From: a virus | Lineage: Duplodnaviria > Heunggongvirae > Uroviricota > Caudoviricetes | Direction: 5' to 3' (one strand) | Virus record (IMG/VR): IMGVR_UViG_2737471827_000002 | Coordinates: 1 to 32,272 of that record | DNA: 32,272 nt | In this document: positions 32,019 through 32,272 of the stretch, piece after piece | Layout of the letters: each line of letters opens with the position of its first letter | How positions within the stretch are numbered: the stretch's first letter is position 1 | The notes under the pieces: model-generated | What the model was told of the DNA's origin: nothing | Seen by the model: only the letters and a program-made list of their open reading frames with translations | Databases searched by the model: none | Made by a program: the position numbers and the translations under genes

Positions 32019-32198
32019 TGTATTCACCAACCCACCCCGCCCCACAGAACGCAGGGCAATACTTCGAGTTACCAGGCAGTGGCAAGGGGTTAAGTAGCCA
32101 GCCCGAGGCGTAAGAACATGACGTCAGGGTTCAACTTTAATAACTATGCAGCAGGTTTTTGTTCCGCTACCCCGGCGTTAAGGGGAAATGAGGTCAGC

Positions 32199-32272
32199 AT
32201 GGATACTATCGATCTTGGCAACAACGAATCTCTGGTGTGCGGCGTGTTTCCAAACCAGGACGGCACATTCAC
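32199..32272 (+). CDS. Start of an unidentified early-left gene (partial, runs off window end)
   Basis: SD GGGGAAATGAGG then ATG at 32199; MDTIDLGNNESLVCGVFPNQDGTF...; open to window end; downstream of OL/pL. Confidence 0.45.
   Translation, partial: MDTIDLGNNESLVCGVFPNQDGTF

What the first reader, a model, noticed from the sequence alone, without database searches (positions are those of the whole stretch)
32040..32272. Unidentified first gene of the leftward early operon
Downstream of the OL/pL-like element a gene with a good SD starts at 32199 (MDTIDLGNNESLVCGVFPNQDGTF). It sits in the position of N in lambda but is not N-like at the N-terminus, and I saw no boxA/boxB-like nut site in the leader.
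Basis: seen in the sequence. Interest (0 to 1): 0.2.

Follow-up and report, generated by a model that had tools for sequence, protein, structure and literature searches.

The report
ydfA gene behind a conserved leader RNA
The "unidentified" gene is the known small prophage gene ydfA (DUF1391), but the 170-base leader in front of it holds a widespread folded RNA element that is not in Rfam or in any annotation I checked, and it may help explain how N-less lambda-like prophages express their early genes.

Summary
The ORF at 32199 is real. It is the 5' end of ydfA (Pfam DUF1391; 23 of 24 residues identical to E. coli K-12 YdfA). ydfA is the first cistron of the dicBF-type early-left operon, whose full form is ydfA-ydfB-ydfC-dicF-dicB-...-xis-int in a 94%-identical prophage.

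The gene lies behind a PL-like promoter (31990-32019). That promoter overlaps a 47-bp operator palindrome, which recurs between the PaaR2/DicA-like repressor gene and the YdaS (Cro-like) gene. The protein is not N, and the window has no early-region boxA and no HK022-type put.

The leader is not empty. Positions 32025-32135 ("X") form a roughly 110-nt structured RNA supported by strong covariation. X starts a few bases after the predicted transcription start behind at least nine different promoter/operator types. It occurs in 3,703 of 5,426 complete E. coli genomes, including K-12 Rac (racR-ydaG spacer). It is never annotated and matches nothing in Rfam 15.

X is followed either by a second module ("Y", 32148-32185) or, in Arsenophonus-type prophages, by canonical boxA-boxB and an N gene.

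My best guess, which is inferred and not shown, is a cis-acting leader that modifies elongation or terminator read-through of the early-left transcript. The gene itself is ordinary. The leader RNA is the interesting part.

The parts
30939..30979 (.). OR-like operator palindrome between the cro-like (YdaS) gene and the repressor gene. Context only.
   Evidence: 15+15 bp perfect inverted repeat. It is 85-94% identical to the palindrome at 31972-32018.
31016..31417 (+). PaaR2/DicA-like HTH repressor (CI analogue). Context only.
   Evidence: Pfam HTH_3 1.8e-13 and Phage_CI_repr. The gene order repressor-PaaA2-ParE matches published CP-933P (PMC8630535).
31445..31923 (+). PaaA2 antitoxin (31445-31636) and ParE toxin (31636-31923), co-transcribed with the repressor.
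   Evidence: Pfam PaaA2 3.2e-22 and ParE_toxin 5e-17.
31942..31966 (+). Intrinsic terminator that ends the repressor operon and insulates PL.
   Evidence: Stem TCCCTC/GAGGGA followed by T8.
31972..32018 (.). OL-like operator. A perfect 20+20 bp palindrome with a 7-bp centre, overlapping the promoter.
31990..32019 (+). PL-like promoter: -35 TTGACA, 18-bp spacer, -10 TAGATT. The predicted start is about 32026.
   Evidence: The same promoter is present in L001. The start site is inferred from the -10 position.
32025..32135 (+). Leader RNA module X. P1 32029-32033/32127-32131. P2 32034-32038/32086-32090. P3 32042-32045/32079-32082. P4 32051-32056/32072-32077. Tip 32058-32060/32068-32070, with the loop at 32061-32067. 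Invariant joining region 32091-32126.
   Evidence: Covariance-model hit of 73 bits, E 5e-15, the only copy in the window. Covariation. 68 homologues in 67 loci. No Rfam match.
32148..32185 (+). Leader RNA module Y: GCAGCAGG (32148-32155), GTTCCGCTA (32161-32169), and hairpin P6 CCCC-GGCGTTAA-GGGG (32170-32185).
   Evidence: Y follows X in every N-less type. The stems covary: CCCC/GGGG, GCCG/CGGC, GCCAG/CUGGC, ACCC/GGGU, CCG/CGG. In N-encoding prophages boxA-boxB takes its place.
32190..32272 (+). Shine-Dalgarno GAGG (32190-32193) and the first 24 codons of ydfA (DUF1391), starting at 32199 and cut by the window end.
   Evidence: 23 of 24 residues are identical to K-12 YdfA. RefSeq annotates the homologues as 'ydfA: DUF1391 family protein'.

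Best explanation
Shown by the analysis: the ORF is ydfA (DUF1391), the first cistron of a dicBF-type early-left operon. It is transcribed from a PL-like promoter. The PaaR2/DicA-like repressor and the YdaS Cro analogue are expected to shut that promoter through a palindromic operator shared with the OR region. Also shown: the roughly 173-nt leader consists of two conserved RNA modules. X is a roughly 110-nt domain that begins 3-5 nt after the predicted start. It has a closing helix P1, a long irregular arm P2-P3-P4 capped by the invariant CAAUACnnnGAGUUA tip, and about 36 invariant joining nucleotides. Y is GCGCAGYAG...GUUCCGCY plus a covarying hairpin just before the ribosome-binding site. 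Inferred, at about one chance in three: X folds as soon as it leaves RNA polymerase and acts in cis on the complex that made it. It would work alone or with host Nus-type factors, with Y taking the place of nutL. Early-left transcription would then read through the DicF terminator and Rho-dependent stops to reach dicB/kil, recombination, xis and int genes in phages that have no N. The function of YdfA itself remains unknown.
For: Gene identity.

Operon structure, including DicF with its terminator downstream, in homologues.

Promoter and operator. The published analogue is PL933P, which is repressed by PaaR2 and YdaS (PMC8630535).

X is a real structured RNA. On the model-fitted alignment 81.8% of cells pair, against 21-46% with slid partners. 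22 of 28 pairs have compensatory changes, and the covariation score is 0.246 against about 0.05. The P3 and P4 helices were also checked on a structure-blind MAFFT alignment: 78.9% paired against 15-44%, and a score of 0.384 against at most 0.148. Independent minimum-energy folds of divergent types give the same architecture.

Position: in most of the 157 distinct upstream sequences the best-scoring -10 hexamer ends 35-41 nt before the P4 loop, behind at least 9 unrelated promoter/operator types. X is therefore the 5'-terminal domain of the PL transcript, as putL is in HK022.

X is followed either by Y or by canonical boxA + lambda-like boxB + an N gene (phrog_271 4e-19; Pfam N_peptide 3.8e-10). 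That nut leader aligns with the lambda nutL leader. Y is thus the positional alternative to nutL.

No N gene, no boxA and no HK022-type put are present here or in the complete homologous operon. The field regards early antitermination in N-less lambdoid phages as unexplained (PMC12315714).
Against: - There is no second copy downstream of PR in the window or in 67 related loci. put and nut act in both early operons.
- X coexists with a full nutL/N system in Arsenophonus-type prophages. It therefore cannot simply be a replacement for N.
- X has no sequence or architectural similarity to put.
- K-12 Qin lacks X and still transcribes at least ydfABC-dicF from dicBp.
- Apart from DicF, few convincing intrinsic terminators are predicted in the homologous operon.
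- X is not more stable than shuffled sequences (z from -2.0 to +0.6).
- The window's own copy carries a G-to-U change (32124) in the otherwise invariant GACGGC, which weakens one helix.
- No experimental data exist.
Confidence: 0.35

Rival explanations
1. X is a 5'-terminal stabiliser, processing element or translation-control element. A helix within a few bases of the 5' end would protect the early-left mRNA from RppH and RNase E. Together with Y it would set the stability of the message and the translation of the first cistron.
For: P1 starts about 3-5 nt from the predicted start behind every promoter type. The Y hairpin ends 4-10 nt before the ribosome-binding site of whichever gene comes first. 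The linker between X and Y is AU-rich in all types. RNase E and RNase III shape the dicBF transcript in K-12.
Against: A simple protective hairpin does not need about 50 invariant nucleotides conserved from E. coli to Arsenophonus. The first gene after Y varies (ydfA, ydaG, phrog_21318, others), so no gene-specific translational logic is apparent.
Confidence: 0.25
2. X is released from the leader as a stable RNA of about 110 nt that acts in trans. It could be a decoy or sponge for a conserved host factor (RNA polymerase, Rho, Hfq or ProQ, a nuclease or a defence protein), and it would be made first on induction or infection.
For: X is a self-contained domain closed by P1 and followed by a variable AU-rich linker. 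It is extremely conserved and present in multiple copies in E. coli (3,703 of 5,426 genomes, up to 7 copies). Phage early-left operons are known to yield regulatory RNAs, such as PreS in lambda and DicF.
Against: X has no terminator or defined 3' end. No seed-like variable region is visible. The fixed fusion to the transcription start and the obligatory downstream partner (Y or nutL) point to cis action.
Confidence: 0.15
3. X is a ligand-sensing riboswitch aptamer or a self-cleaving ribozyme at the head of the early-left operon.
For: X has a multi-helix junction with many invariant unpaired nucleotides and covarying stems, which is typical of aptamers and ribozyme cores. Y can form two mutually exclusive hairpins (CGCC/GGCG or CCCC/GGGG) that could serve as an expression platform.
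Against: No terminator or SD-sequestering helix is coupled to X. X matches none of the 4,227 Rfam families. The alternative X-Y pairings that I examined are not kept by covariation.
Confidence: 0.1
4. X has no RNA function. It is a conserved 'linker' that survives because it is a hotspot for homologous recombination between immunity modules and early-left modules of mosaic lambdoid phages.
For: The homology boundary lies exactly at the promoter/transcript junction, behind many immunity types. One recombinant copy (L254) joins the 5' half of one type to the 3' half of another and breaks P1.
Against: Compensatory base changes in four helices across at least 6 divergent sequence types are not expected for a recombination linker.
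Confidence: 0.05

Closest known systems
dicBF operon of the Qin cryptic prophage, E. coli K-12 (dicBp-ydfA-ydfB-ydfC-dicF-dicB-ydfD-ydfE)
   Same: The first gene is the same (YdfA, 23 of 24 residues identical). The layout is the same: a DicA-type repressor upstream and an operator-controlled promoter. The last 45 nt or so of the leader, including the P6 hairpin and the SD, are the same. The 94%-identical homologue L001 has the same downstream genes.
   Different: Qin lacks module X and the 5' half of Y (no model hit). Here the repressor is PaaR2-like and carries a PaaA2-ParE pair, and the operator sequence differs.
CP-933P immunity region of E. coli O157:H7 (paaR2-paaA2-parE2, ydaS, ydaT, PL933P)
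   Same: The gene order and Pfam families are the same: an HTH repressor, PaaA2, ParE, and divergent YdaS and YdaT. A PL promoter downstream of parE2 shares operators with the OR region. In CP-933P it was shown experimentally to be repressed by PaaR2 and YdaS (PMC8630535).
   Different: The operator sequence differs: one long palindrome here, against several 18-bp repeats there. The authors could assign no function to what lies downstream of PL933P and did not describe a leader RNA.
Rac prophage racR-ydaG spacer, E. coli K-12
   Same: It contains module X (78 bits, E 3e-16, at about NC_000913 1419514-1419615, minus strand) followed by Y and small genes including the DUF1391 paralogue YdaF.
   Different: The first cistron is ydaG, not ydfA, and the repressor is RacR. 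X is not annotated there either.
Lambda nutL/N antitermination
   Same: The position matches: a cis RNA site between PL and the first gene. In Arsenophonus-type prophages X lies directly upstream of a bona fide boxA-boxB-boxC leader and an N gene that align with lambda.
   Different: In this window there is no boxA, no lambda-type boxB and no N. Lambda itself has no X: about 33 nt separate its start from boxA.
HK022 putL/putR antiterminator RNAs
   Same: The position matches: a structured RNA that starts within a few bases of the PL transcription start in a phage without N, and it is protein-independent in principle.
   Different: X shows no sequence similarity. Its architecture differs: about 105-115 nt closed by P1, against about 70 nt with two stem-loops. 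There is no PR-side copy. RNA polymerase binding is untested.

Membership tests
DUF1391 / YdfA-YdaF (Pfam PF07151) | Match to the family profile above Pfam's gathering score. | tested here: met
   The window fragment scores 42.5 bits against a cut-off of 27.3, E 5e-11. The full-length 94%-identical homologue scores 94 bits.
DUF1391 / YdfA-YdaF (Pfam PF07151) | A small protein of about 50 aa. | not testable with these tools
   The window ends after codon 24. The homologues are 51 aa.
dicBF-type early-left operon | ydfA directly after a repressor-controlled promoter and followed by ydfB, ydfC, dicF and dicB. | tested here: inconclusive
   The upstream half is met in the window. The downstream genes lie beyond the window. 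They are present in the 94%-identical locus L001 and in K-12.
Lambda-type N/nut antitermination | The first gene encodes an N protein (arginine-rich N-terminus; Pfam N_peptide / phrog_271). | tested here: not met
   Only DUF1391 is hit. YdfA, YdfB, YdfC and YdaG hit PHROGs of unknown function. The positive controls, the Arsenophonus N proteins, hit phrog_271 and N_peptide.
Lambda-type N/nut antitermination | boxA (YGCUCUUWA) in the leader. | tested here: not met
   The single window match, at 20175 on the + strand, is at chance level and not in an early leader.
Lambda-type N/nut antitermination | A boxB hairpin with a GNRA-like pentaloop next to boxA. | tested here: inconclusive
   A covarying hairpin (P6) sits at the equivalent place. 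Its loop here is GGCGUUAA. Some relatives have GGAAGA or GAAAGA loops.
HK022 put RNA | Sequence and two-stem-loop architecture related to putL/putR. | tested here: not met
   putL finds putR in HK022 but nothing in the window's early region. The X model finds nothing in HK022.
HK022 put RNA | Located immediately downstream of the PL start. | tested here: met
   The -10 hexamer ends at 32019 and X starts at 32025-32029. The spacing is constant behind at least 9 promoter types.
HK022 put RNA | A second copy in the PR operon. | tested here: not met
   There is one hit in the window (the next best has E 0.14) and one per immunity region in 67 loci.
HK022 put RNA | Binds the RNA polymerase beta' zinc-binding domain and suppresses pausing and termination. 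| not testable with these tools
   This needs transcription assays and rpoC mutants.
Any Rfam 15 family | Covariance-model match. | tested here: not met
   No relevant hit appears even at E up to 10 for the window leader. There is also none for four divergent X types or at gathering thresholds.
PaaR2-PaaA2-ParE2 / CI-Cro-CII-like immunity region | An HTH repressor, PaaA2 and ParE in one operon, with divergent YdaS and YdaT, and operators shared between OR and OL. | tested here: met
   Pfam hits and the shared palindromes at 30939-30979 and 31972-32018.

The most novel reading that the evidence does not exclude
The X-Y leader is a new class of phage RNA that makes RNA polymerase terminator-resistant without a phage protein. 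It would be functionally analogous to HK022 put but unrelated in sequence and fold. It would be the long-missing early antitermination device of the very common N-less lambdoid prophages (Rac-, Qin- and CP-933P-like). In N-encoding relatives, X alone would serve as an upstream helper of nutL.
Probability: 0.3. Interest if true: 0.8.

Novelty: new variant of a known kind. Interest (0 to 1): 0.45.

Why it matters
The gene call itself changes nothing: ydfA is known, common and of unknown function.

The leader is different. It is a structured RNA with about 50 invariant bases. It is fused to the start of the early-left transcript behind many different immunity systems. It is present in two thirds of complete E. 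coli genomes, including strain K-12, and it is absent from Rfam and from genome annotation.

Lambdoid phages without N are numerous, and how they carry early transcription through terminators is unexplained outside HK022. This element gives a concrete target that can be tested genetically in K-12 Rac or in inducible phages.

Even if the mechanism turns out to be RNA stability or a trans-acting RNA, it would add a new conserved regulatory RNA. That RNA would sit upstream of toxic prophage genes (dicB, dicF, kil) that affect cell division and phage resistance.

Tried and rejected
- **Rfam searches.** The leader, four divergent homologues and seven loci were searched. They found only unrelated RNAs (DicF, isrK/C4, STnc100, sok, RalA).
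- **HK022 put.** There is no similarity by BLAST with short words, and the X model finds nothing in HK022.
- **A putR-like second copy.** None was found.
- **tRNA or tmRNA-like fold.** ARAGORN found none.
- **Coding potential of X.** The 31-aa TTG ORF at 32018-32113 was rejected. Length differences between X types are not multiples of three, and the conservation pattern is that of helices.
- **'Mini-N' idea.** Small arginine-rich ORFs in some relatives looked like the N arginine-rich motif. They hit lambda Kil (phrog_2055), not N.
- **LexA box in the operator.** The spacing is CTGT-N9-ACAG, one base too long. This was read directly from the sequence.
- **Strand test by G·U versus A·C counts.** It was inconclusive: 98 against 99 cells, with the A·C cells concentrated at two helix-end positions in one type. 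Strand is therefore assigned from promoter and gene context and from the invariant U·G pair.
- **Long-range X-Y pairings.** GAAC/GUUC, GGCG/CGCC, and the Y start against the P1 3' strand were examined by eye. Covariation does not maintain them.
- **RNAalifold on the raw MAFFT alignment.** It missed the helices because of register errors.
- **Folding energies.** They do not differ significantly from shuffled sequences.
- **The one allowed genome-contig scan.** It was wasted on a pattern that was too short. It gave mostly chance hits, and only the Arsenophonus locus (L172) and L240 were real.
- **Literature searches.** Searches on ydfA, ydaG, racR, DUF1391, the EHEC prophage sRNAs, the Pas sRNAs and put-like elements found no description of X.

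Full report
**Observation.** The ORF is exactly as described. ATG is at 32199, GAGG lies five bases upstream, and the translation is MDTIDLGNNESLVCGVFPNQDGTF up to the window end. A sigma-70-type promoter lies upstream: TTGACA-18-TAGATT at 31990-32019, matching 10 of 12 positions. It is embedded in a perfect 20+20 bp palindrome (31972-32018). A near-identical palindrome lies at 30939-30979, between the divergent repressor and cro-like genes. An intrinsic terminator (31942-31966) separates the promoter from the upstream operon.

**Surroundings.** The upstream genes are an HTH repressor (31016-31417), a PaaA2 antitoxin and a ParE toxin. On the other strand are a YdaS-family Cro analogue, a YdaT-family CII analogue and a DnaT-domain replication protein. 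This is the layout published for the O157:H7 prophage CP-933P. There, PaaR2 and YdaS act like CI and Cro and both repress a PL promoter located after parE2. The authors could assign no function to what follows PL933P (PMC8630535).

**The gene.** The 24-residue fragment alone matches Pfam DUF1391 above the curated threshold (42.5 bits against 27.3). It is identical to E. coli K-12 YdfA at 23 of 24 positions. The DNA matches thousands of E. coli prophages, where RefSeq calls the gene 'ydfA: DUF1391 family protein'. The best full-length match is 94% identical. In that locus the operon continues ydfA-ydfB-ydfC-DicF-dicB-DUF1482-recE-exonuclease-xis-int and ends at potC. K-12 Qin has the same order, and it is the experimentally studied dicBF operon (bioRxiv 10.1101/2023.04.14.536235). 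The gene is not N. It has no N_peptide or phrog_271 match, whereas true N proteins from related loci hit both. No solved structure and no functional study of DUF1391 turned up. YdfA remains of unknown function.

**The leader.** Canonical boxA is indeed absent, and so is HK022-type put. However, BLAST against phage genomes showed that about 160 nt of the leader are conserved on their own. They occur behind different repressors and in front of different first genes (phages Evi and vB_EcoS-640R1, and an Actinobacillus phage record at 74% identity). K-12 Qin keeps only the last 45 nt or so. Pattern scans of IMG/VR gave more than 200 instances in about 28 sequence types.

**Structure of module X (32025-32135).**
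- Divergent types fold independently into the same shape. A closing helix P1 encloses a long irregular arm (P2, P3, P4). The arm is capped by an invariant C-AAU-ACnnnGA-GUU-A tip. An invariant stretch, YAAGUAGCCAGCCYGAGGCRYAHGAACAUGAMGGCR, follows.
- I built a covariance model from eight sequences of one type with a hand-drawn structure. It found all other types.
- On that alignment 81.8% of cells are paired, against 21-46% when partners are slid. 22 of 28 pairs show compensatory changes. The covariation score is 0.246 against about 0.05.
- That alignment is fitted to the model, so I repeated the count for P3 and P4 on the structure-blind MAFFT alignment. There 78.9% of cells are paired against 15-44%, the score is 0.384 against at most 0.148, and 11 of 15 pairs have compensatory changes.
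- Thermodynamic stability is unremarkable.
- No Rfam 15 family matches any type, and RefSeq annotates nothing there.

**Distribution and position of X.**
- X occurs in 3,703 of 5,426 complete E. coli genomes, with up to seven copies per genome.
- It occurs in K-12 Rac between racR and ydaG.
- It is absent from Qin, lambda and HK022.
- In most of the 157 distinct upstream sequences the best -10 hexamer ends 35-41 nt before the P4 loop. These represent at least nine unrelated promoter/operator types. X therefore begins about 3-5 nt after the transcription start.
- There is exactly one copy per immunity region and none on the PR side.

**Module Y and the link to nut.** Every X is followed by one of two things.
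- The first is Y: GCGCAGYAG, a short spacer, GUUCCGCY, and a hairpin. The hairpin stem covaries (CCCC/GGGG, GCCG/CGGC, GCCAG/CUGGC, ACCC/GGGU, CCG/CGG). Its loop is GGCGUUAA, GGCGACAA, GGAAGA or GAAAGA.
- The second, in Arsenophonus-type prophages, is CGCTCTTTAAC (boxA), CGCTGAAAAAGCG (a lambda-like boxB), a UUUGGGGUGUGUGA block and an N gene. That leader aligns with the lambda nutL leader, which lacks X.

X is therefore a module that sits between PL and nutL. Y is the positional alternative to nutL in phages without N.

**Mechanism.** None of this shows function. The fixed fusion to the 5' end resembles putL. The exclusive pairing with either nutL or Y, the lack of N, boxA or put, and the presence of the DicF terminator upstream of dicB, recombination and xis/int genes all point one way. 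The most economical reading is a cis-acting leader that alters the elongation complex or its handling of terminators. I rate it at about 0.35.

Several facts argue against it:
- There is no PR-side copy.
- X coexists with a complete N system in some prophages.
- X has no resemblance to put.
- Qin transcribes at least ydfABC-dicF without X.
- Few intrinsic terminators are predicted in the homologous operon.

The rival readings are a 5' stabiliser, processing or translation element (0.25), a released trans-acting RNA (0.15), a riboswitch or ribozyme (0.10), and a mere recombination linker (0.05). Covariation contradicts the last one.

**Known or new.** The gene, the operon type, the promoter/operator logic and the toxin-antitoxin pair are all known. 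The X-Y leader is absent from Rfam and from RefSeq annotation, including that of K-12. I did not find it in the papers on Rac, Qin, CP-933P, the EHEC prophage sRNAs or put. A recent survey of lambdoid phages explicitly leaves early antitermination in N-less members open (PMC12315714). The library I could search is incomplete, so prior description elsewhere cannot be excluded.

**Caveats.**
- The window stops at codon 24. The downstream operon is inferred from a 94%-identical relative.
- The transcription start is predicted, not measured.
- The window's own X copy has a unique G-to-U change at 32124 in the invariant GACGGC (1 of 65 distinct sequences). This may weaken one helix.
- The strand of the functional RNA rests on promoter and gene context and on an invariant U·G pair. 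G·U versus A·C counts were not decisive.

Noticed in passing
window 20764-20951 (- strand): Adjacent Rfam matches to C4 antisense RNA (65.7 bits) and isrK (66.9 bits). This is an RNA-based regulatory module known from P1/P4-like elements and Salmonella Gifsy prophages, here inside a lambdoid prophage.
   Followed up: no
window 17916-18104 (- strand) and 24628-24803 (- strand): There is an STnc100 sRNA match (113 bits) and a sok antitoxin RNA match (112 bits), which implies a hok/sok-type module in the nin/late-regulatory region.
   Followed up: no
window 31445-31923: A PaaA2-ParE toxin-antitoxin pair is co-transcribed with the prophage repressor, as in CP-933P. The repressor has no S24 peptidase domain, so induction probably needs an antirepressor.
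   Followed up: partly
L338 5515-5616 (- strand) = NC_000913 about 1419514-1419615: E. coli K-12 Rac carries an unannotated copy of the X RNA between racR and ydaG. It is directly usable for genetics.
   Followed up: yes
L172 (Candidatus Arsenophonus nilaparvatae) about 4750-7780: Two immunity regions lie in tandem on one strand. One has a DicA-like repressor and the other a CI/S24 repressor. Each is followed by X, boxA-boxB and its own N gene.
   Followed up: partly
L254 1597-1713 (- strand): This X copy looks recombinant. It has the 5' half of the E. coli type and the 3' half of the 'AACAAC/GUUGUU' type, so P1 cannot form. It is either a dead copy or evidence that recombination occurs inside X.
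   Followed up: no
L009, L248, L087 (between X and Y): About 100 nt are inserted between X and Y. They form a long perfect hairpin (GAGCGTTTCGCGGTGTGG...CCACCGCACCAGCGAAACGCTC). Other types lack the insert.
   Followed up: no
window 32124: The window's X has U where 64 of 65 distinct homologues have G (GACGGC or GAAGGC). With this change the window sequence prefers an alternative 3' hairpin in the minimum-energy fold.
   Followed up: partly
window 32161-32185 and homologues: Module Y can form two mutually exclusive hairpins: CGCC-loop-GGCG, or CCC(C)-GGCGUUAA-GGG(G). This could be a switch.
   Followed up: no
L003 (PP818812, 'Actinobacillus phage vB_Apl-pPE4'): A phage record assigned to Actinobacillus carries an enterobacterial-style DicA/YdaS/YdaT immunity region, X-Y, Kil and RecE. 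The same X type occurs with ydfA in IMG/VR contigs, so the host assignment may deserve a check.
   Followed up: no
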